This document shows, piece after piece, positions 33-31,830 of a stretch of DNA of 32,000 nucleotides. Source of the DNA: Candidatus Saccharimonadota bacterium. GTDB lineage: Bacteria > Patescibacteriota > Gracilibacteria > BD1-5 > UBA2023. The stretch spans positions 120,001 to 152,000 of the forward strand of contig OY970170.1 in the NCBI GenBank assembly GCA_963706795.1, written 5' to 3'. A program made the position numbers and the translations under genes. A model generated the notes under the pieces. That model had not been told where the DNA came from and did not search any database. It worked only from the letters and a program-made list of their open reading frames with translations. Every line of letters begins with the position of its first letter. Within the stretch, counting starts at the first letter, position 1.

Positions 33-593
33 TCGTTCTGTATTACTGGTACCTGGAATGTAATATCCATTTCATCCACTCATCACCATGGGCGTATTTC
101 TCGGGTGATTTCAACTCCACCAAAACTCTCGGCGAGTGCACGACTTCAGATATTTTTTTCGAGACATCGGTGCATCACACTCTGATACTGTGGATAGGTC
201 TCGTGCATCCATTTGAGGATCGCAGCATATGCCTCAGATCCATATCCCCTACCCTGAAACTCAGGCGCGAGCCAGAGCCCAATCTCCGGTCCATCGGTAT
301 CATGAAAATGAAGCCCAATCGTCCCAAGAAACTCGTTAACCGAAGTAGTATAAATAAATCGACTCAGTGCCTTCTTGTAGAATTCTTTTTGGATTTGCCC
401 TTCTAAGAAGATTTTCTCGGCCTGAATATCTGCTGGAATGTTATAATTTACAAATCGATCAACATTCGCCCTCACAAATTTACCGTACACCTCAGCAACA
501 TTCTCCGTATGAAACGGCACCAAACGAAGACGCTCAGTCGTGATAATTGTCTTCCAGGTGGTATCTGGATGAAATGTAATGTGAGGCGGAATA

Positions 594-601
<8 letters not shown>
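23..601 (-). CDS. GNAT family N-acetyltransferase (RimJ/RimL-like), 192 aa under table 25
   Basis: Track ORF 146..601 carries the acetyl-CoA motif QGRGYGSEA. It ends on TGA (146-148). Read as Gly, the frame continues (…EKNI-G-SRALAESFGGVEI…) through two more TGA codons to TAG at 23-25. The ATG (599-601) overlaps the leuS TAA by 8 nt (ATGCGTAA). Confidence 0.8.
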
Positions 602-3587
<2,986 letters not shown>

Positions 3588-3640
3588 ATTTGAAGGATGA
3601 GATTGTGGCGTATTTTAGAGAAAAGAAGCGCTTTGTCACG

Positions 3641-15308: not shown

Positions 15309-15383
15309 TCCTCGGTAGCTCAGTGGTAGAGCAGTTGGCTGTTAACCAATTGGTCGTCGGTTCGAATCCGCCCCGGGGAGCCA
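15309..15383 (+). tRNA. tRNA-Asn (anticodon GTT) with encoded CCA
   Basis: Cloverleaf read by eye. Acceptor stem TCCTCGG/CCGGGGA, D-arm GCTC-AGTGGTA-GAGC, anticodon stem-loop GTTGG-CTGTTAA-CCAAT, T-arm with GGTTCGAATCC, and a 3' GCCA end. Confidence 0.9.
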
Positions 15384-20737: not shown

Positions 20738-21493
20738 ATGAAATCTCGCCTAATCGCGACAATATTTGCTGGCCTTGCTTTTGCTGGTTCGGCTCATGCA
20801 GAACGCGTGATCCTTAATCAGTCAAAACTCGCAGTAAGTAGTCCTTTCTGGCCATACTTACCACATTTTTGGGAATTTGATCCAACAGAAAATCCTCCAG
20901 TAAATGGTATTTCCAAGTATGCTTGTGGGCATGCTGCATTGAAAGTTGCTGCACAATATGTATCGGGGAAATCTATAACTATCCCCGAATTACACACATA
21001 CTTTTCCGCTAACTACCAAACTTATGCGCTAGATCAGCGATGTGGCCAAAATGATTGGCATAAGGGCTATTTCTGTGCAAATCTCTACGACATGGAGGCA
21101 GCAGCTAAGCGACAGCTTAATTTACCAAACAGTAAACTGCATCTGGAAAGTCCTCGTTATATTAATGGACTTCCTAATTATGCAGCCTTCCTACAAAAGG
21201 TGAAGGACGGTGTGCGGAATAATTTCCCTGTAATTACCAGCTCTGGCTGGCAGGGAAATATGTCCTGGGGACACATGTTTGTAATTGTGGGCTTCAACAC
21301 CGATAATACAAGTCGGCCTGAAGACGCATGGCTTTTTATACGCGATGTAAAGGATCAAACCGCCACTTCAAAAGAAATGGATGACTGGGTCACAGTAAAG
21401 GAATTTGTTGACGCCATGAAAGGTACTCAATTAGGCAGAACATACGATTGGCAACCAGAAAATGGTTTTCAATTCTTATTCGTTAAGCCATAA
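20738..21493 (+). CDS. Secreted papain-fold cysteine peptidase candidate (peptidase C39-like)
   Basis: Signal peptide MKSRLIATIFAGLAFAGSAHA/E. Candidate nucleophile in YACGHAALKVAAQY, and a candidate His in WGHMFVIVGFN followed by FIRD. It stops on TAA and a terminator follows. Confidence 0.55.
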   Translation: MKSRLIATIFAGLAFAGSAHAERVILNQSKLAVSSPFWPYLPHFWEFDPTENPPVNGISKYACGHAALKVAAQYVSGKSITIPELHTYFSANYQTYALDQRCGQNDWHKGYFCANLYDMEAAAKRQLNLPNSKLHLESPRYINGLPNYAAFLQKVKDGVRNNFPVITSSGWQGNMSWGHMFVIVGFNTDNTSRPEDAWLFIRDVKDQTATSKEMDDWVTVKEFVDAMKGTQLGRTYDWQPENGFQFLFVKP

Positions 21494-23275: not shown

Positions 23276-24250
23276 CTATACTCCCACCAACATTTCCATC
23301 ACTCACCTCTCTTTCTCCGCTATTTCCTTCAAAATTTCCGACGCCTGATAGATACATGCGATATCTTTCGTATTACTCACTTCCTCAAATAATCGAGCAA
23401 CTTCCATCCACAGAAGTGCGATTTGAGTAAATGCTTCATATCCAAGTCGGAGTTTCTCTCAGCCTATGAGCTCGTGAGATTCTTTTAGGAAATCTCGATA
23501 TAGATTCCTAAACAGCGCACCTCCCGTGCCTGCTCTTTCCATCAGCATGGCCGTGGTGCCAAAATCCTCTGCGACGTCCTGACTCTGTTTGAACCATTTT
23601 ATGATCTCTGTACTGGTTTTGAGGATTCCTTTGTAGCTGATATTCGTAATAGGTGGATTGAGATATTCTGCTGCATTGTCTCGGATTGCAGTGAGAATAG
23701 TGTCCTTTATATCGAATTCATAGCCAGTTTTCTTCAAAAAATAGTACATATTCTTTGAGGCCATGGGTCATGTTTCGGCACGAGCGAGGGCGAGACTGTG
23801 GAGTGATGTTTTTACCATTCAACCCTGTTGTTTTGTGTCTACCAAATATGCCGAATCTACATCGTAGCCATACATCGCAACATAATGTCCTGCGAAATGA
23901 ATCGGGTGAGAAAAATATTCCAAATGATAACAGTCCAGTTTGAGACCTACGATGTATCATTCATCTATTAGATTCTTCACATTTTCCCAGGCTTTTTTGG
24001 GTGATGAAGTCTCATGGGTAGATAGGTCCAATTTGAGACTCTGTGCGATATTCTGAGTGACGAGATCGGGCTTGATTCGTCCGCCAATGAATGGACGATC
24101 CATGCCTTTCATATTCCAAAATATATAACTCAGCCCCTTACCTAGTCCAAAAAGCATCGGTTCAGAAAGCGTGATCCCCAATGAGAGTAGGATCGTTCCT
24201 GTAGCAGTAGTCTCGCAGTGTTGTCACTCGAATGGCTGGATTTGGAGCAT
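23276..24250 (-). CDS. BtrH-N/DUF4872-like protein (papain-fold), 324 aa under table 25
   Basis: MLQIQPFEGQHCETTATGTILLSLGITLSEPMLFGLGKGLSYIF… and HFAGHYVAMYGYD fit the BtrH N-terminal pattern. Track ORFs 23957..24181 and 23459..23764 share a frame. It has 6 in-frame TGA codons and stops on TAG at 23276-23278. Confidence 0.65.
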
Positions 24251-24442
24251 AGATAGGGGTTGGATTATTTTGACTACATTCTGATAGAAAACAGGATAGC
24301 AAGAGTCTGAGTGAAAGCAATCTTGAGGTCAGAATCATAGTGCTTGATTGTGAGTATTTGGATGATCGGGCGTAGGATTGAGTTTGCATACGATCAACTG
24401 AGCATACACTCATGCTGTTTAGCTATAGTTCCCTGCTCTCAT

Positions 24443-24935: not shown

Positions 24936-24982
24936 AAAAAAAATCACCTGATCGTAATAGATCAGGTGATTTTATTTATTTT
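24936..24982. terminator. Bidirectional terminator between convergent genes
   Basis: 13-bp stem AAATCACCTGATC / GATCAGGTGATTT (24941-24972), flanked by an A-run and a T-run. Confidence 0.7.
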
Positions 24983-26438
24983 AAAATGTTCCTTTGAGTC
25001 CGACATTGTAGACTGGTCCGCTTGATTTTCAATCTATGCGATCCTGGCGAACTCCTGCAAATACATCAATACTAGGACCCTTCCACACTCCGAGTTTTTT
25101 GGTTACTTCGAGCCCCACTCGACTTGAGTCGCTTGGTCCAAGTGGACTCTTGCCAGTTGAGCGGATAATCTCAGTGTAGGCACTTGCGGACATGTTCATG
25201 TTTCGAAGTGTAGCCTGTGCTTTGGAAGTATTTGCGAGTGCAGATACTTCTCGACTTACTGCGAGATCAAATGCACTTCCCTTCTCATTATCCTTGTGGG
25301 TGATGCCACCATATACCGTGTTTGATCCATAGGTATTTGGTGTATCCGTGGCTCCACTTTGGAGATTTGGGACGATATTTCTTGTGTGGATAACTCCGGC
25401 ATGGACTGCAGTCTTGGGATCGAGTACATACTTTGCTTGTACATTTCAGGAGACTGCCACTTCTCCAACCTGTCCTTTCCTCAGACCATGAATACTGAGA
25501 TCGAGATGATCTGCTAGTTGTACTTTTGCCTTAGTAGTCAATCCTGTCTCGATAGAGAAAGTATCGTTCACTGGCCATATCTTTGAGACTCCTGCCTGAG
25601 CTGCCGCTGCGTAGTAATCCCGACTCACATCTTTCTCTGAACCAATGCGCGTTTTTGAGACATTTATTTCACCAAAACCACGCAGGAGTTCATTACCTGA
25701 TTCGTATCCGAGGGTTGTATGAATCGTCTGAAGTTTGAGTCCTGCGATCTCATTTTCCTTGTATCCGATGCCTGCATATGTACCACCGATGTGCTTGTTA
25801 AGTGCAATTCGTTTCCCACGATTGGTGAGTTCAAATTCTACACCTTCTGGCATGTTTGATGGTTTTTTGAGCCAAGATTCTACATCGCGCATCGTGAACA
25901 TTTGTGCATTTACCTCGCGGTTGAGCGGAGTCTGGATTGCACCGATGATATCCCCTTTGTCGTTAGCGAGATAGTTGGTGAAGACATAGTTCTTGTTTTT
26001 TACTGCGTAGGTATCGAGGGCTTCTTCGATATTTCTCCCTGTATAAAGTACTCAATAGTCGGAGAATACAGTCTTATCTGCTACCTTCATAACAGTAATC
26101 GCATGTCCTAAATCCTGACCACCCACCGTTACAACTCCTGCGTCAATTCCCCATGCATTTGCCACTTGGGCAACCGTCGCATGGATACCAGTACAGACAC
26201 TCAGTGGAAGAGATTGTTCGCTGTAAGTGGCTTGTGCAAGATTGGAGAACTGTTTACCGAGTGTGGGAACTGGGAGAGGCTTCCCTGTTTGTGCTGTTTC
26301 TTGGTTGTAAGTAAACTTCAGGAGTTCACTTCCTAAAATATCAAGGAAAATGATCTTCTCTTCTTTTGAAAGTGTAGATCAGATGCGTACGAGATTGTCG
26401 CGGACGTATTTCTCATTTGATGTGACAGAAACCTGCAT
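24981..26438 (-). CDS. Transglutaminase-like Cys-His-Asp domain fused to a beta-strand-rich C-terminal region ending …VYNVGLKGTF, about 485 aa
   Basis: One frame is open from 26516 to TAA 24981-24983, with 4 in-frame TGA codons downstream of the chosen start (a fifth lies between the two start candidates), and it contains track ORF 25446..25901. Candidate triad: SVCTGIHATVAQVANAWGID, GHAITVMKV and FSDYG. The last ~330 aa have alternating hydrophobic residues and a terminal Phe. The start is ATG 26436-26438 or 26481-26483. Confidence 0.55.
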
Positions 26439-27459
26439 CAGAGGGAAGCGATGTAATAGCAAGGAGATTTTCTCCGTATGCATTCTGTGCTTTAATTGTA
26501 TGACTGCGCACTTTTTCTATATCGTACTTTTCATGGAAAATATCTCAAAAAGCGACCATATTTCATCTTAATTGATCCTCAATAGATCATTTAAGAAAGG
26601 TGAAACGATTTCTGAGCGCTTCCTCACTTTGTCCAACACTCCTATTAAGAGCAGATTCGGCTATAGCCTTTAAGCTATAGAGTCCATCTCTGCCAGACAA
26701 CTTAGTCTTTGCATCATTTTGCTTCTTGCTTATATCTGCAAGCTCAGCACTGTGGTCATTAATATATTTTCTTTCTGCATTGAGTGCCTTTATGAGCTCC
26801 TGGATCTTTGGATCATTGCTCTTTACAAAATACTGATCAGAGTCAGCATTAAATCCAATAAGATCTCCATTAGCGGCGGCAATATAGTCTGTCGATAAAT
26901 CATGTCCTGTTTTTGCCTTGTAAGAATCTATAATCGCCGAATATCCGTCTTGAAGAATCTTTCATTGTTTGTTCGTGACTTCAATAATAGCCTCAAGTGG
27001 CACAATGTCATTTGTTATTTTTTTAAGCGCTTCGATACTTGCAGTTTTATCCACAAGAGCAGCACTAAGTCTGCGCTCACCTCATGCAAAGTCTGGAGCA
27101 AAAGCACTCGCATATTCAGTGCCTCCAAGAGTTGGTAGATTACTTTTGGATTGATAACCAAATTTCATACTCACCGGAAAGGCGGGATCTTTGCTTGCCG
27201 CCTTAATAATATCTGCCCGAGCCTTCAGACTTTCTTGGGTCATATCAAGACGAGCTGCAGACGTATCAGCAAGGCTATCGAGTGAAACTTTCGTATCTTT
27301 CTCGCCCTTCTTTTCTGGAGCAGGCGGCAGATCTAAAGGATCAGGAATATCAAATCCACTATATGGATCAGTATCGTATGATGGAAGTTCGAGGGTCATA
27401 AACAAAGAATGTGAACTAATGTGTACTGATTTTCTGCAGAACTGCGACGTGTCACTCAT
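26254..27459 (-). CDS. Hypothetical protein, about 400 aa; its 3' end overlaps the next gene in the +1 frame
   Basis: Track ORF 27082..27522 continues through 6 TGA codons with no TAA or TAG until 26254-26256. Start candidates are ATG 27457-27459 (MSDTSQF…) and ATG 27397-27399 (MTLELPSYD…). The last ~55 codons look non-protein-like. Confidence 0.5.
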
Positions 27460-27610
27460 GTTCTTTTTGAAGAGAGCGAATAATGCGCATCTGAGTCTTT
27501 GGCTGCATCTTGGGGAATGCATCGCTCAAAAGTGCCTTCTCTTTATCATCAAAAGCGCAGGAACGAGCCATATAGAGCTCCATGAGTCGGTGGATCTGTG
27601 AATATTGCAT
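27359..27610 (-). CDS. Small hypothetical protein, about 83 aa
   Basis: MQYSQIHRLMELYMARSCAFDDKEKALLSDAFPKMQPKTQMRIIRSLQKEHE, then TGA (27452-27454). Under table 25 the frame runs on to TAG 27359-27361. A promoter-like element lies upstream. Confidence 0.4.
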
Positions 27611-27629
27611 ATGTCTGGTTATATCACAA

Positions 27630-28113: not shown

Positions 28114-28452
28114 ATGAATGATTTACTCGAAGCAAATAGAGCTGACGAACAAATAAAAGCACTTCGTCAGCCAGCACCGATCATCGCCACAGACATCGTA
28201 CACGATGCATTTAAAAGAGTATTCGGAAGCGATATGCACTTCCCTGCTGGACAGCTTACTCAGGAAGTTGCCGACTTGCAGGATCGTGTGCACATGAGCG
28301 TGCTCGCACATCTTGATTTTAGACTCGAAACTGCGGAACCTCTGGTTGATGTGATCACTGGTATTGCCTTCAATGGAGAGATTACACAAACAAATGACGG
28401 CAGGAAAATTGCCTTTCAGGTGGAAGTACCAAATGAGGCGTTAGGATTATAG
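28114..28452 (+). CDS. Hypothetical protein, 112 aa
   Basis: The ORF starts 7 nt after the previous stop. It stops on TAG and a terminator follows. I recognise no motif. Confidence 0.55.
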   Translation: MNDLLEANRADEQIKALRQPAPIIATDIVHDAFKRVFGSDMHFPAGQLTQEVADLQDRVHMSVLAHLDFRLETAEPLVDVITGIAFNGEITQTNDGRKIAFQVEVPNEALGL

Positions 28453-28485
28453 AAAAATGACTCAGAATTTCCTGAGTCATTTTTT
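28453..28485. terminator. Bidirectional terminator between convergent genes
   Basis: AAAAATGACTCAG-AATTTC-CTGAGTCATTTTT. Confidence 0.7.
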
Positions 28486-28494
28486 ATAGTGATA

Positions 28495-31400
28495 CTAATT
28501 AAACCATCTTTTTGGTTTTGGATGAGCCTCAACTTGCTTCTGTAGAAGCTCGACTGCCTCAATGCCTTTCTCCATCTCGGCGACACTCTTGAGGCCAACG
28601 GGTGATTTTTTATCTACGATCTGTGCAAGTTTTGCGCGGACATCACGAACTACGGCAATTTCTTGTTTTCCTTCTGATCATTTATCCCCAAAGATGGCAT
28701 TCAGTTGAAATACATCATTATTCCATTTAGTATCCCACTTTGTTTCATTACCCGAAATGATTGCATCAAACTGCCTCTGGATTTTTGCAGGACTGAGATT
28801 GGCGAGTTTTTCCATAAAAATTGGATCGTTCTCGTGGGCATATTGGTACGAAAAATACGCAAGCGCGTCAATCATGGCATACGCTCATCGAAGCTCGTCG
28901 AATCTTGCGCGAATATCAGAACCTGACTCACTCAGACGAGTCTTTATATAAGCAGCTCAGCTTTTGCGAATGTCGAGGTATTGATTATTAACGTAAGCTA
29001 AGAGTTTTTGCTTTGCGATATCACCCTCAGGAGTGCTAAATGGCGCCATTTTTCTTCTGACAACATTGTCAGTAATAGCTGCTCTGCAAGGACCATAGTC
29101 TGCGCCATGACTCATGCCAATGCTCAACCCAAGGGAATCTTCAAAACAAGTATACGTAGTTACATACTCAAAGTTATCGCCATTACCGCCAGGATCTCGA
29201 TATCTTCATCCTCAGCCTGACCTTCATCTGACTATACGTGTTTTTTCAGTAATTCGAACCGAGAGGGTTCAATCGAATTTCAGGCTTGGTACTATAAATT
29301 GTGCTTTGGTATCAAAGGATTTATATACTAAATCTTTTTTAGCAAAGACCTTGATAATCCCTCGGTTTAAATCATCAGATGAACTGCTGACCACTTCTTC
29401 TTTTTTGCTGATAATCCAGTTTTTCAGCCCAGCATTTACAACATCTTCTTCTTTGTCGCTGGTGAGAAGAGGTTTTTGGAGACTGATCCCCACCATGGCA
29501 GCATCATGGGGCTGAGAAGCAGATAACAGAGATATTTCTTTTGTTTTCTGTTCTTCAAACTTACGAAGCTCTCGGTCGAGTTCTTCTAAAAATTTCTGAC
29601 GTTTTGTCTCATAGAGTTTGAGACTGAGATCAAAGAGAGAATTCTCGCGAATATCTGCGAGGCGAGCACTTTCGTCTTGGAGTGCTTGGAGTGTAGATTT
29701 GATATTGCGAATATTCACCTTATCAACCTCAGTAATACCGTGTGTACCGAGAAGTACGAGGTATTTATCCATAATCATTTTCATGATTTCTGGATTGACG
29801 AGCGACTCGCCTGAAGTCACGGGTGTCTCAAAATCGAGAATACCCCTCGAGGTGATATTTCGAACCATATTGATCGAGCCTTCCATTCCGCGATTTTGGA
29901 GTTCATTTGCAAAATCACGCAAGGCTGACTTCCTTGCTCTTCCTGTAAAATTATAGTTCGCCGCGTAGCTCGTTGCTAGATTGACGAGCCCTGATTTGCA
30001 AGAGACAAGATTACTCGTGTCATACCCATTTTTAGTCCAAGTTGTAGCCTGTGTATAGCAGCCTTGCAGTATACCGCCGTGAGTATTTCTAAAGAGGTCT
30101 TCTTGTATAATCATTTGATTATCCTGCAAATGACCGAGTGCGGCTGCGATTTGATCGAGACGATTCTTAATATCTGTTACATCACCCTGGATTTGGTCCA
30201 ATCTATCTAATACAATATCGAGTTTTTTATCTACACGATCAAAGCGCTCATGCATCTCTTTTTTAAGTTCGGAGATTTGTTTAGAGAGCTTTTCAAGCGC
30301 AGCCATTATTTGCTTATGCCTCTCTCCAGCAGGATCAGGTTTTTTAGCAAAGAGTCCTACGAGATTTACAGCCGCGCTCACCATGTTCCCTGTTGCAATT
30401 GAGCCAGCCATATCGCCTAATTTAAGCAGACTAATCGTCTCCATGACATTGACGAGATTGTCTGCGATGACCACTGCAGTTCAGATATCTCTTGCAGTCT
30501 CCGAATTCCCAAAAAGCTGTCCAAGACCCCGTGCTATATTCAAATAGTTACGAGTCTCTTGGTAAACTTCTTTAATCTGCTGCTTTTGAAGCATGAATGC
30601 CGCAGCAATAGCAGCTTCTTTTGCTTTAATGAGCACTTCTTGTTCAGCCTTTGCCTGTACATTTGTGAGCGTTTTGAGACCTTCGCGCATCACTTTTGCC
30701 TGAGCAACTAAATCAGCAAGCGTTTGAGCTTGGTTTTTGAGCGCATCTGTATTTTTACCAATCTTTTCCTGCATTTTCTTATTTACTTCATACAGACCAT
30801 CAGCCTTGTTGAGCAATAAGACAGTTGCTGGGTCCATGAAGCTCTTGTAATCAACCTTGGTGATATCTTTATCAATGAGCTGCTTTGTGAGAGCGCCAAG
30901 TAATTTTTGCTGATCTTTAGAAAGTCTCTCAGGATGATTGATGAGCTCTTGAATAAGTGGCTTTCCGATGTTTTCTGCAAATTTCTGGAACTTAAAATTT
31001 GCCTCCTGGCGAAGCATGTCTTCATCAATTTGAGCGTCTGTTTGCAGCTCTGCGAAAGATGATCAAACCGGAGAGAATGTTGTACTATTAGAGGCAAGCA
31101 CGATGGCCTCTTTTATAACCGACGTATATCCTATCATTTTACCAATAATCGACTCCGCGAGAGGAAATGCCTGATTCGCCAATATCGCCTTAGAGACCAT
31201 CTCTGCTGTATAACTCTGTGGGAGATGAGAGATCACTTTTGCAATATCTCTATCAGATATTTTTTGGCCATCACTTCTTGCCACCATCTTAATATTACTG
31301 TCAGTTTTGAGCAGTGCGAAAACAAACTGCTCCATCTTTCAGCTATCGAGCAGGGCTTTATTCACGTAGTCAGCAGTAAGCTGTTTTTCCATTATTTGAC

Positions 31401-31626
31401 GCTTCTCTATCTCGCTCGCATTCGCAATCGAAGGACTCGTCACCACTGGAGTTGCCAGTGTTGGCTGCGACTCCGCTGGCGATGCAAATGTGAGTGCTGC
31501 AGCAACTACCGCCCCCTGAATAGCGCTCGAAATAGATTTTCCTTCTCTATTTTTTGATGTGGGTACAAAAAAATCCCTCACCCCAAGGTTGTTCTGCATA
31601 ATTCCAAAGATGAAAAAATACTTCAC
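28495..31626 (-). CDS. Giant coiled-coil-rich protein of unknown function, about 1043 aa under table 25
   Basis: Track ORFs 31339..31626, 31063..31335, 30481..31017, 29269..30474 and 28678..28875 all share one frame. I translated every linker: they contain only TGA codons and no TAA or TAG. The stop is TAG at 28495-28497. The start is GTG 31626 or ATG 31599. The N-terminus has a hydrophobic stretch, AIQGAVVAAALTFASPA. Confidence 0.7.
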
Positions 31627-31830
31627 TCAAATCCAAAGGAGGATGGATTACATAGTTCAAAATATTCAAAAAGATGAGATATTCAAGCATGATGAAGCCA
31701 TCTTTAAAAAAATCCCCACAGATTGATTTTTATCCTCAAATTCATACGATGTAGGCGTTCCGAAATAGTGGCCCGCAAATATATCAGTCACCCCGACTGA
31801 TACGATCTACTACAAAAAAAGGAGGAATAC

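What the first reader, a model, noticed from the sequence alone, without database searches (positions are those of the whole stretch)
28495..31626. A roughly 1043-codon ORF of unknown function hidden as five or more fragments
Five track ORFs plus three unlisted linkers form a single frame of 3132 nt. It has at least 11 in-frame UGA codons and no TAA or TAG. The N-terminus has a signal-like hydrophobic segment (AIQGAVVAAALTFASPAES). It is followed by long heptad-like, Lys, Glu and Gln rich stretches, for example HKQIMAALEKLSKQISELKKEMHERFDRVDKKLDIVLDRLDQIQGDVTDIKNRLDQIAAALGHLQ and ALKNQAQTLADLVAQAKVMREGLKTLTNVQAKAEQEVLIKAKEAA. These separate globular segments that I cannot assign to any family. 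It is monocistronic, with its own divergent promoter region (31627-31830) and a shared terminator. Giant secreted or surface proteins are plausible host-attachment or attack factors in episymbiotic CPR bacteria.
Basis: partly seen in the sequence, partly recalled or inferred. Interest (0 to 1): 0.7.

Follow-up and report, generated by a model that had tools for sequence, protein, structure and literature searches.

The report
Secreted coiled-coil protein, UGA-recoded gene
The apparent string of short ORFs is one intact 1,034-codon gene in a bacterium that reads UGA as glycine, and it encodes an exported, mostly helical protein from a widespread but never-described family of about 1,000-residue secreted proteins whose function is unknown.

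Summary
On the minus strand, ATG 31599 to TAG 28495-28497 is one open frame of 1,034 codons with 10 in-frame TGA and no TAA or TAG. TGA sits at conserved Gly positions of Obg and LeuRS in the same window, so the genome uses code 25. Every TGA-bounded piece has coding-type codon usage in this one frame.

It is not an orphan. An exhaustive search with the 403-aa TGA-free core found 184 related cluster representatives. Most are about 1,000 aa, mostly with N-terminal signal-like segments. They come from Caldilineaceae, Actinomycetota, Armatimonadota, Bdellovibrionota and a Sinorhizobium conjugative plasmid. All share a near-invariant central module at the same relative position: TGN..GA....V.LF, then EMHxRFDR[IV]D opening a long heptad helix. 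Homology is solid for target residues about 270-690, marginal for the C-terminus and undetected for the N-terminus.

The family matches no Pfam, NCBIfam, PHROG, PADLOC or PDB entry above threshold. Its AlphaFold model (pLDDT 77) has no Foldseek match in PDB or BFVD.

The function is inferred only: an exported, oligomeric, possibly membrane-interacting surface factor. This is a real gene of moderate interest.

The parts
28495..31599 (-). Complete coding sequence: ATG 31599 to stop TAG 28495-28497. It has 1,034 codons read with code 25 (TGA = Gly).
   Evidence: Searches show the open frame with 10 TGA and no TAA or TAG. One search shows the ortholog P0003 aligning Met-to-Met at this ATG. One search shows coding-type codon usage in frame 0 in every segment.
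31624..31629 (-). This is probably 5' leader, not coding sequence.
   Evidence: One search lists the start candidates. favours ATG 31599.
31600..31830 (.). Divergent intergenic spacer between the target (minus strand) and a plus-strand gene. That gene starts at ATG 31831 and has a GGAGGA ribosome-binding site.
   Evidence: One search gives the sequence. One search finds no sigma-70-like match of at least 9/12 here, so a promoter is inferred from the gene arrangement only.
31483..31599 (-). Signal-peptide-like N-terminus (residues 1-39): a basic n-region (K15, R18, K21), an h-region AIQGAVVAAALTFA, then A|SP.
   Evidence: One search gives Kyte-Doolittle 1.42 for residues 22-40 and one search gives 1.84 for the 14-mer. 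One search shows P0003 conserving '..IQG.VVA....ASP..SQ'. SignalP was not available, so the cleavage site is inferred.
30481..31482 (-). N-terminal region (residues 40-373). It is conserved with the CPR relative P0003 (45% identity). Homology to the wider family is detectable only from about residue 270.
   Evidence: Searches give the alignments. Searches find no independent profile signal for residues 1-346.
30343..30480 (-). Conserved amphipathic helices rich in small residues (residues 374-419), including the family's near-invariant T-G-N (403-405) and ..A....V.LF.
   Evidence: One search shows the motif in 110 of 155 proteins. Searches show G, N, A and F invariant or near-invariant. One search gives Kyte-Doolittle 1.3-1.4, below the transmembrane range.
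30100..30324 (-). Long heptad coiled coil (residues 426-500).
   Evidence: One search gives periodicity power 131.7 against 11.9 +/- 11.7, with 0 of 2,000 shuffles reaching it. One search shows AlphaFold modelling one continuous helix of 99 residues (fragment 53-151, target 426-524).
30229..30258 (-). Family signature EMHERFDRVD (residues 448-457). M, R, F and D are invariant in the family.
   Evidence: One search shows the invariant columns. One search shows RFDR[IV]D in 129 family sequences. One search gives the codons.
29500..30099 (-). Central helical domain (residues 501-700). It is homologous to the family's post-motif domain and to the CPR fragments P0002 and P0004.
   Evidence: Searches give hhalign P = 1.2e-5 (probability 81%) on its own. 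One search gives 42% and 34% identity to P0002 and P0004.
29080..29304 (-). Segment with strand-like sequence patterns and a Gly-rich loop VRGRSGGGGRYRDPGGNG (residues 766-840). It lies at the same relative position as the beta-sheet in the family model.
   Evidence: One search shows P0013 strands at 777-830. One search shows the colinear alignment. The secondary structure of the target here is inferred, not modelled.
28498..29079 (-). C-terminal region (residues 841-1034). It contains the block DELRGAYAMIDAL (28861-28899), which aligns with the family's conserved 'ELxGAKxLL' block.
   Evidence: Searches give P of about 0.004 at the colinear position. This is marginal.
31339..31341 (-). In-frame TGA, residue 87 (Gly). 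The relative P0003 has Gly here in the conserved block DSGK..QF.
31063..31065 (-). In-frame TGA, residue 179.
30481..30483 (-). In-frame TGA, residue 373.
29269..29271 (-). In-frame TGA, residue 777.
29206..29226 (-). Cluster of three in-frame TGA codons, residues 792, 796 and 798 (29224-29226, 29212-29214, 29206-29208), inside the Gly-rich loop.
28957..28959 (-). In-frame TGA, residue 881.
28885..28887 (-). In-frame TGA, residue 905. It aligns with the family's near-invariant Gly of 'ELxGAK'.
   Evidence: The alignment is marginal.
28678..28680 (-). In-frame TGA, residue 974.
28448..28488 (.). Bidirectional intrinsic-terminator hairpin (A-run, 14-bp stem core, T-run). It is shared with the convergent plus-strand gene 28114-28452.
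   Evidence: One search gives -20 kcal/mol, z = -4.63, with 0 of 200 shuffles reaching it.

Best explanation
Shown. This is one intact, monocistronic gene in a Patescibacteria (CPR) genome that decodes UGA as glycine. Its 1,034-aa product has a Sec-type signal-like N-terminus and is mostly alpha-helical. It is a divergent member of an uncurated family of about 1,000-aa secreted proteins scattered across bacterial phyla. The family's hallmark is a near-invariant central module. That module is an amphipathic helix rich in small residues (TGN..GA....V.LF), a short Pro-containing linker, and then EMHxRFDR[IV]D opening a heptad helix of about 75-100 residues.

Inferred. After export, the long heptad helix drives oligomerisation into an elongated stalk, possibly a parallel trimer. 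The conserved Gly/Asn-rich amphipathic helices sit at its N-terminal end and act as a membrane- or surface-interacting element. The flanking helical domains and the small beta-sheet provide the scaffold and binding surface. In this host-dependent CPR cell the protein would then be an extracellular contact or membrane-active factor. It is neither a cytoplasmic nor an SMC-like protein.
For: Gene and code:
- The frame has 10 TGA and no TAA or TAG.
- TGA falls at conserved Gly of Obg ('KGGDG') and LeuRS ('DIGMV'), and all genes checked end in TAA or TAG.
- Codon-usage log-likelihood is positive in frame 0 for every TGA-bounded segment.
- TGA-87 matches Gly in the ortholog P0003.
- TGA usage is 10 of 62 Gly codons here against 15 of 314 in housekeeping genes. 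This argues for long residence under code 25.

Family:
- Exhaustive phmmer with the TGA-free 403-aa core found 184 cluster representatives at E <= 1e-3. Most are about 1,000 aa with the match at residues about 350-480.
- The motif is present in 110 of 155 of them.
- hhalign of the target group against 48 full-length members gave probability 99.9%, E = 2e-33, with 802 colinear columns.
- The central domain alone gave P = 1.2e-5.
- The family HMM matches a Sinorhizobium plasmid protein over its full length at 253 bits.

Export:
- 100 of 119 full-length members have an N-terminal hydrophobic segment.
- Many carry C-terminal extracellular add-on domains: DUF11, PKD, cadherin-like, TSP3, BNR.

Coiled coil:
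- One search shows the periodicity.
- AlphaFold models a 99-residue single helix.

Possible switching or oligomer-dependent region:
- The best-conserved segment is the least confident part of an otherwise good family model: pLDDT 40-57 for residues 397-494 against 77 overall, pTM 0.72.
Against: - No experiment, transcript or peptide evidence exists.
- Homology outside target residues about 270-690 is marginal (C-terminus P about 0.004) or undetected (residues 1-346).
- HMMER with the narrower family HMM aligns only residues 31-492.
- The hydrophobic helix has a mean Kyte-Doolittle of only 1.3-1.4, below typical transmembrane values.
- The resemblance to class I fusion proteins is sub-threshold. 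HA2 scores E = 0.03 (16 bits) and CoV_S2 scores 12 bits against a cut-off of 40. Coiled-coil periodicity alone could explain it.
- RFDRVD fits the register but not the residues of the R-hxxhE trimer motif.
- Gene neighbourhoods of homologs share no conserved partner that would point to a pathway.
- The signal peptide was judged by eye and hydropathy, not by SignalP.
Confidence: 0.55

Rival explanations
1. It is a passive structural or adhesive surface protein, such as a stalk, fibre or S-layer-associated spacer. In this reading the coiled coil only provides length and oligomerisation, and the conserved hydrophobic helices are simply a buried packing interface with no membrane activity.
For: The signal-like N-terminus and the extracellular add-on domains in relatives fit this. 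The hydrophobic helix is below transmembrane hydropathy. Large surface proteins are invoked for host attachment in Absconditabacteria (PMC8080830).
Against: Structural spacers rarely keep a near-invariant 60-residue sequence motif across phyla. The protein has no repeats, no anchor motif (no LPXTG, no lipobox) and no known adhesin domain.
Confidence: 0.25
2. It is a component derived from a mobile element: a phage tape-measure or tail-like protein, or an accessory protein of conjugation or type IV secretion, left in the chromosome.
For: One full-length family member sits directly after the T4SS coupling-protein gene on a conjugative Sinorhizobium medicae plasmid. There are sub-threshold hits to small PHROGs of unknown function. 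Tape-measure proteins appear among the non-significant BFVD matches.
Against: No relatives were found in 2.9 million IMG/VR contigs. None were found in 50,697 phage genomes. Only that single plasmid hit appeared among 72,556 plasmids. The neighbours in the window are housekeeping or unrelated genes: ferritin, L19 and a DEAD helicase upstream in L002, and LeuRS, MetRS and Obg in the window. The chromosomal homolog contexts examined hold no annotated phage or T4SS genes.
Confidence: 0.07
3. It is a cytoplasmic SMC-like or cytoskeletal coiled-coil protein.
For: The protein has a long coiled coil. There are weak hits to archaeal SMC-related ASRP (16.9 bits) and to LmuB (19 bits).
Against: The ASRP cut-off is 300 bits. 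There is no Walker A/B, SMC_N or hinge hit in Pfam. Only one segment of about 75-100 residues is heptad. The N-terminal signal-like segment and the extracellular add-on domains in relatives argue for export.
Confidence: 0.03
4. It is not one gene. It would be a decayed pseudogene, or several small genes, in which TGA terminates translation.
For: Public table-11 gene calls split it into pieces of 401, 178, 90 and 86 aa and smaller.
Against: Essential genes in the same window need TGA = Gly. There is not one TAA or TAG in 1,050 codons. All pieces are colinear with a single family of about 1,000-aa proteins and with one ortholog across TGA-87, -179 and -373. Codon usage stays in frame 0 throughout.
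Confidence: 0.02

Closest known systems
Uncurated 'TGN / EMHxRFDR[IV]D' family of about 1,000-aa secreted hypothetical proteins. Examples: Caldilineaceae MAG proteins U0350_20335 and R3C14_48560, Micromonospora echinospora GA0070618_3276, Armatimonadota MBN1460339.1, Bdellovibrionota HLB59323.1, and Sinorhizobium medicae plasmid WP_208153714.1.
   Same: The length is similar. The N-terminus is signal-like. The central module sits at the same relative position with the invariant residues kept (T-G-N, A, F, E-M-H, R-F-D, D). The post-motif helical domain is homologous. The overall alignment is colinear.
   Different: Identity is only about 22-26% over the core. The linker is of the 'ERHK..M.AL' type instead of 'PSPEQMILEEI' (shared with P0010, P0018 and P0080). 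The target lacks the second DRFDQID unit. The N-terminal about 260 residues and residues about 700-860 show no detectable similarity. The gene is written in code 25. The family itself has no described function or structure.
Class I viral fusion subunits (influenza HA2 residues 45-112; coronavirus S2 HR1, PF01601)
   Same: A Gly-rich hydrophobic segment is followed by a long heptad helix. The family profile's best PDB sequence hits are about 40 HA2 chains over exactly the B-loop and long-helix region ('FDqi..KLN.vie...ekFhQIe'). The best-conserved region is modelled with low confidence, as a metastable segment might be.
   Different: All scores are below significance: E = 0.03-0.8, and 12 bits against a 40-bit cut-off. 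There is no Foldseek match. The hydrophobic segment is internal, not at a cleavage-generated N-terminus. No second heptad repeat was identified for a six-helix bundle. This is an analogy and a lead, not homology.
DUF1664 (PF07889) and Baculo_PEP_C (PF04513)
   Same: These are the best Pfam hits to the hydrophobic-helix plus coiled-coil stretch (residues 429-493).
   Different: Both are below the gathering cut-offs: 26.1 against 34.6 bits, and 14.5 against 38 bits. They are small proteins of about 120-140 aa from plants and baculoviruses. The similarity is confined to the heptad region.
SMC / archaeal SMC-related protein
   Same: Both contain a coiled coil.
   Different: The score is 16.9 bits against a 300-bit cut-off. 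There are no ATPase head or hinge domains. The target has an export signal.
Giant surface proteins of Absconditabacteria (Vampirococcus lugosii)
   Same: Both are code-25 CPR organisms. Both involve exported large proteins of unknown function proposed to mediate host contact (PMC8080830).
   Different: Those proteins are 1,392-4,163 aa and carry recognisable interaction domains. This one is 1,034 aa with none. No sequence comparison with them was made here.
Phage tape-measure proteins
   Same: The size is similar, the proteins are helical, and both have Gly/Ala-rich hydrophobic segments. Tape-measure proteins appear among the non-significant BFVD matches.
   Different: The matches have E > 0.1 and TM-score <= 0.13. 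There is no PHROG tape-measure hit, no phage context, and no relatives in viral collections.

Membership tests
Genetic code 25 (UGA = Gly) genome | In-frame TGA falls at positions that are conserved Gly in universal proteins, and genes terminate only with TAA or TAG. | tested here: met
   Obg has 'KAGKG[TGA]DGAVSWRREKY' and LeuRS has 'LFDI[TGA]MVPNEEP'. The 11 genes checked, target included, end in TAA or TAG. That these positions are conserved Gly is from my own knowledge of the E. coli and B. subtilis sequences. No tRNA-Gly(UCA) is present in this window.
Uncurated TGN / EMHxRFDR[IV]D secreted-protein family | Central signature: [TS]GN..GA....V.LF, followed 25-35 residues later by EMHxRFDR[IV]D. 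| tested here: met
   The target has ATGNMVSAAVNLVGLF ... KKEMHERFDRVD. The invariant family columns M, R, F and D and the near-invariant T, G, N, A and F are kept.
Uncurated TGN / EMHxRFDR[IV]D secreted-protein family | A protein of about 1,000 aa with the signature at residues about 350-480. | tested here: met
   The target is 1,034 aa with the signature at residues 403-457. 52 of the 155 proteins then held are 900-1,200 aa with the signature starting at residues 300-500.
Uncurated TGN / EMHxRFDR[IV]D secreted-protein family | Homology of the helical domain after the coiled coil. | tested here: met
   hhalign of target residues 500-700 alone against the diverse family profile gave P = 1.2e-5, probability 81%, at a colinear position.
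Uncurated TGN / EMHxRFDR[IV]D secreted-protein family | Homology of the N-terminal domain and of the C-terminal 'ELxGAKxLL' domain. | tested here: inconclusive
   The C-terminal block aligns at the colinear position with P of about 0.004. Residues 1-346 give no independent signal. The full-length alignment is colinear (802 columns), but the core drives its score.
Uncurated TGN / EMHxRFDR[IV]D secreted-protein family | An N-terminal export signal. | tested here: met
   The target h-region has Kyte-Doolittle 1.84 after K/R residues. 100 of 119 full-length members have a comparable segment. This is a heuristic check only; SignalP was not available.
SMC / SMC-like | N- and C-terminal ATPase head (Walker A/B), a hinge, and two long antiparallel coiled-coil arms. 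| tested here: not met
   There is no SMC_N or hinge hit in Pfam. The NCBIfam ASRP score is 16.9 bits against a 300-bit cut-off. Only one heptad segment is present.
DUF1664 (PF07889) | A score at or above the Pfam gathering threshold. | tested here: not met
   26.1 bits against 34.6.
Class I viral fusion protein (HA2 / CoV S2) | Significant sequence or fold similarity to HA2 or S2. | tested here: not met
   The best HA2 hit is E = 0.029 (16 bits). CoV_S2 scores 12.2 bits against 40. No Foldseek hit reaches E <= 1e-3 in PDB or BFVD.
Class I viral fusion protein (HA2 / CoV S2) | A trimeric, metastable prefusion state that refolds to insert a hydrophobic peptide into a target membrane. | not testable with these tools
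   There are only indirect hints. The conserved core has low pLDDT in a good model. The register R(g)-F(a)-x-x-V(d)-D(e) resembles the R-hxxhE trimer motif but does not satisfy it (PMC3653964).
Phage tape-measure protein | A tape-measure profile hit and a location among tail genes. | tested here: not met
   No PHROG or Pfam tape-measure hit was found. No phage genes flank the target. No viral relatives were found.

The most novel reading that the evidence does not exclude
The TGN-helix plus EMHxRFDR[IV]D coiled coil is the working part of a new class of bacterial, secreted, spring-loaded trimeric membrane-insertion proteins. It would be a cellular analogue of class I viral fusion subunits, with a fold not represented in the PDB. 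In this UGA-recoded CPR epibiont it would breach or fuse with the host cell membrane.
Probability: 0.12. Interest if true: 0.85.

Novelty: new member of a known kind. Interest (0 to 1): 0.4.

Why it matters
Standard-code gene calling cuts this gene into six or more meaningless pieces, and public collections hold it that way. This shows concretely how code-25 genomes hide full-length proteins.

Reassembling it links a CPR protein to a cross-phylum family. That family has an unusually invariant 60-residue core. It has no curated annotation and no structural relative in the PDB or BFVD. Some members occur in bacteria where experiments may be feasible (Micromonospora echinospora, and a Sinorhizobium medicae plasmid), so the family's function could be tested there and carried back to uncultured CPR organisms.

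About half of the proteins in such genomes lack any annotation (PMC8080830). As a single hypothetical protein it is therefore not surprising. Its value is as an entry point to an undescribed family.

Tried and rejected
- **Word-index search, full code-25 protein.** It returned nothing, not even the gene's own fragments. I took this as a retrieval failure, not as absence. A later profile search with the CPR group returned only the gene's own fragments P0001 and P0235, plus one weak Paractinoplanes hit.
- **Code-25 translation refused.** Only the 403-aa TGA-free core could be used, so there is no model of the target's N- or C-terminal thirds.
- **GTDB genome scans (2).** Neither the source genome nor any relative was found.
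- **JGI metagenome scans (2).** One used a central-domain profile and one used a degenerate DNA pattern for ELKKEMH[DE]RFDRVD. Both found nothing. One alignment was rejected as too gappy.
- **Foldseek.** The family model was searched against PDB and BFVD, and the target-core model against PDB. Nothing reached E <= 1e-3, and TM-scores were <= 0.2.
- **Family libraries.** Pfam, NCBIfam, PHROGs, PADLOC, and PDB by sequence gave only sub-threshold coiled-coil cross-hits.
- **Literature.** A search for the motif strings found 0 papers.
- **Conserved gene neighbourhood.** Two Caldilineaceae-type homologs sit downstream of a BTAD/NB-ARC/TPR regulator, but they are probably syntenic copies of each other. 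Micromonospora has a two-component pair next door. Sinorhizobium has a T4SS. Nothing is shared with the CPR locus.
- **HMMER alignment for the C-terminal TGAs.** hmmalign against the narrow family HMM placed all C-terminal TGAs in insert states, so it was uninformative there. I also mis-numbered the first TGA as residue 89. It is residue 87.
- **Trimerisation motif.** The register fits R-hxxhE, but Phe at position a and Asp at position e do not match the published definition.


Full report
**1. The observation**

The feature is on the minus strand. With TGA treated as sense, the open frame extends to 31647 (1,051 codons, 11 TGA). It is the longest such frame in the window.

Six table-11 ORFs of at least 40 aa lie in this frame. 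Public table-11 gene calls on the same DNA (Logan contig L002, 100% identical) do split it into products of 86, 90, 178, 401, 52 and 65 aa.

I place the start at ATG 31599, giving 1,034 aa. The only relative with an N-terminus (P0003) aligns Met-to-Met there and keeps the following signal-like segment.

All eight TGA-bounded segments of at least 15 codons have a positive log-likelihood for the window's own codon usage in frame 0. Each scores lower in the other five frames, and all but one of those scores are negative. The composition is typical of the window: GC 42.5%, GC3 39%.

**2. The genetic code**

Genes for LeuRS, MetRS, Obg, a PilB-type ATPase and others in the window each carry in-frame TGA and end in TAA or TAG. 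In Obg the TGA falls in 'KAGKG[TGA]DG'. In LeuRS it falls in 'LFDI[TGA]MV'. From my own knowledge of the E. coli and B. subtilis proteins, both are conserved Gly positions.

A 90%-identity cluster mate of the window's ribosomal protein S6 is annotated 'Patescibacteria group bacterium'. The window's proteins map to a 1.27-Mb contig. UGA = Gly is established for Gracilibacteria and Absconditabacteria (PMC4032931; PMC8080830). I could not tell which of the two lineages this genome belongs to.

Inside the target, TGA-87 matches Gly in P0003's conserved 'DSGK..QF' block. TGA-905 aligns with the family's near-invariant Gly of 'ELxGAK', although that alignment is marginal.

TGA supplies 10 of the target's 62 Gly codons, against 15 of 314 in ten confident genes. 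The gene has therefore evolved under this code for a long time.

**3. Anatomy**

- **Residues 1-39.** A basic n-region, the h-region AIQGAVVAAALTFA, then A|SP.
- **Residues 40-373.** A helical-looking region, 45% identical to P0003.
- **Residues 374-419.** Two amphipathic helices rich in G, A, S, T and N, including T403-G-N. Their mean hydropathy is 1.3-1.4, below transmembrane values.
- **Residues 426-500.** A textbook heptad repeat (power 131.7 against 11.9 +/- 11.7, with 0 of 2,000 shuffles reaching it). AlphaFold draws it as one 99-residue helix.
- **Residues 501-700.** A helical domain.
- **Residues about 700-765.** A Ser- and Lys-rich linker.
- **Residues 766-840.** A segment with strand-like sequence patterns and the Gly-rich loop that holds three TGAs.
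- **Residues 841-1034.** A C-terminal region.

The gene is flanked upstream by a 231-bp divergent spacer. No sigma-70 consensus site was detected there. Downstream is a strong bidirectional hairpin shared with the convergent gene 28114-28452.

**4. Relatives**

The exhaustive phmmer search with the 403-aa TGA-free core found 184 cluster representatives at E <= 1e-3.

Three are CPR-type relatives. P0003 covers the N-terminal half (E = 5e-115 locally). P0002 and P0004 are central-domain fragments with 42% and 34% identity.

Most of the rest are proteins of about 1,000 aa that match at residues about 350-480, the same relative position as in the target. They share a striking motif..TGNvlGAvMNvVSLFG..P.PEQmILeeIgkLRqQv.qLRtEMHdRFDRiD..Ln.IY...

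hhalign of the target group against 48 diverse full-length members gives probability 99.9%, E = 2e-33, over 802 colinear columns. I then tested the parts separately. The central domain is independently significant (P = 1.2e-5). The C-terminal 'ELxGAKxLL' block is marginal (P about 0.004, at the right place). The first about 346 residues give nothing. I therefore call the target a divergent member. Shared ancestry is shown for residues about 270-690 and is probable, but not shown, for the rest.

**5. What the family is**

Members carry only the name 'hypothetical protein'. They come from Caldilineaceae, Micromonospora echinospora, Crossiella, Armatimonadota and Bdellovibrionota.

A tblastn search of plasmids found one further full-length member, WP_208153714.1 (253 bits against the family HMM). 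It lies immediately after the T4SS coupling-protein gene of a conjugative Sinorhizobium medicae plasmid.

Of 119 full-length members, 100 have an N-terminal hydrophobic segment. Many have C-terminal add-ons typical of extracellular proteins, such as DUF11, PKD, cadherin-like, TSP3 and BNR domains.

No Pfam, NCBIfam, PHROG or PADLOC model and no PDB sequence matches above threshold. The motif strings occur in no paper of the library.

An AlphaFold model of member P0013 with a 72-sequence alignment is good overall (pLDDT 77, pTM 0.72). It is mostly helical with a three-stranded sheet at residues 777-830. The most conserved stretch, residues 397-494, is the least confident part. Foldseek finds nothing at E <= 1e-3 in the PDB or BFVD. 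The model of the target core is weaker (pLDDT 65) and also has no match.

Gene neighbourhoods of four chromosomal homologs share no partner gene. No relatives were found in viral collections.

**6. Mechanism**

Several things are shown. The protein has an exported-type N-terminus. It has a long heptad helix. A conserved amphipathic helix rich in small residues lies just before that helix.

The rest is inferred. I propose that the heptad helix oligomerises after export. That would place several TGN helices together at one end of a stalk, where they engage a membrane or another surface.

Three weak leads point the same way:

- The family profile's best PDB sequence hits are about 40 influenza HA2 chains over the B-loop and long-helix region (E = 0.03-0.8). 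The target also has a sub-threshold CoV_S2 HR1 hit.
- The conserved core is modelled with low confidence in a monomer, as expected for a segment that depends on oligomerisation or switches conformation.
- R452(g)-F(a)-D-R-V(d)-D457(e) has the register of the R-hxxhE trimerisation motif, though not its residues (PMC3653964).

None of these is a test. A purely structural or adhesive role is the main rival.

**7. Novelty and verdict**

The new result is that it belongs to an undescribed cross-phylum family. It is neither a CPR-specific orphan nor an SMC-like or phage protein.

Unannotated proteins make up about half of such genomes, so one more is not surprising in itself. The invariant core and the lack of any structural relative give the family moderate interest.

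I rate it a new member of a known kind, namely exported large helical proteins of unknown function. My interest score is 0.4. I give about a 12% chance that the core is a genuinely new membrane-insertion device.

Noticed in passing
window 594-3614 (-): The leucyl-tRNA synthetase carries a genuine NUDIX domain (PF00293, 38.3 bits against a cut-off of 21.1, residues 400-506). It is inserted right after a truncated editing domain (profile positions 1-141 of 185). Two of the gene's three TGA codons lie inside the insert. A Nudix hydrolase domain fused inside LeuRS is unusual, as far as I know.
   Followed up: partly
window 26431-26433, affecting 24981-27618 (-): The window reads GAAAC where an otherwise identical 12.9-kb Logan contig (L001) reads GAAC. 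With the Logan version, 24981-27398 is one intact 805-aa ORF under code 25, with no Pfam hit, ending '...YNVGLKGTF'. In the window it is frameshifted into two overlapping ORFs. This is either an assembly error or strain variation.
   Followed up: partly
window 20738-21493 (+) and 23276-24418 (-): Two papain- or C39-like peptidase-related genes lie near each other. One is a signal-peptide protein with sub-threshold Peptidase_C39_2 similarity and a Peptidase_C70 (AvrRpt2-type) match above cut-off. The other is a BtrH_N/DUF4872 protein. They sit among several other signal-peptide or membrane proteins of unknown function.
   Followed up: no
L010 (Sinorhizobium medicae plasmid NZ_CP149880.1) 7960-13009: The plasmid's family member (1,025 aa) is followed by two further signal-peptide hypothetical proteins (145 and 485 aa). 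All three lie directly downstream of virB9, virB11 and the T4SS coupling-protein gene. They may be a T4SS-linked secreted gene set. No equivalent trio was seen next to the other homologs.
   Followed up: partly
L005/L006/L007 2039-5143 and L008/L009 (2246-5353 / 428-3535): In Chloroflexi-type contigs the family member lies within about 1 kb downstream of a BTAD/NB-ARC/TPR (SARP/STAND-type) regulator of about 1,035 aa. A third homolog (L004) has an HTH-AAA-TPR_MalT protein nearby. These may be syntenic copies rather than independent associations.
   Followed up: no
L001 versus L002 (same sample, ERR12037365): The public gene calls treat two contigs of the same organism differently. On L001, genes containing TGA are called full-length (for example the 342-aa SDR with 3 TGA). 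On L002 the target is cut at every TGA. Per-contig choice of genetic code therefore fragments some genes of one genome and not others.
   Followed up: no
window 15309-15383 (+): The only tRNA in the window is tRNA-Asn(GTT). No tRNA-Gly(UCA) is present here, so the code assignment rests on the protein alignments.
   Followed up: yes
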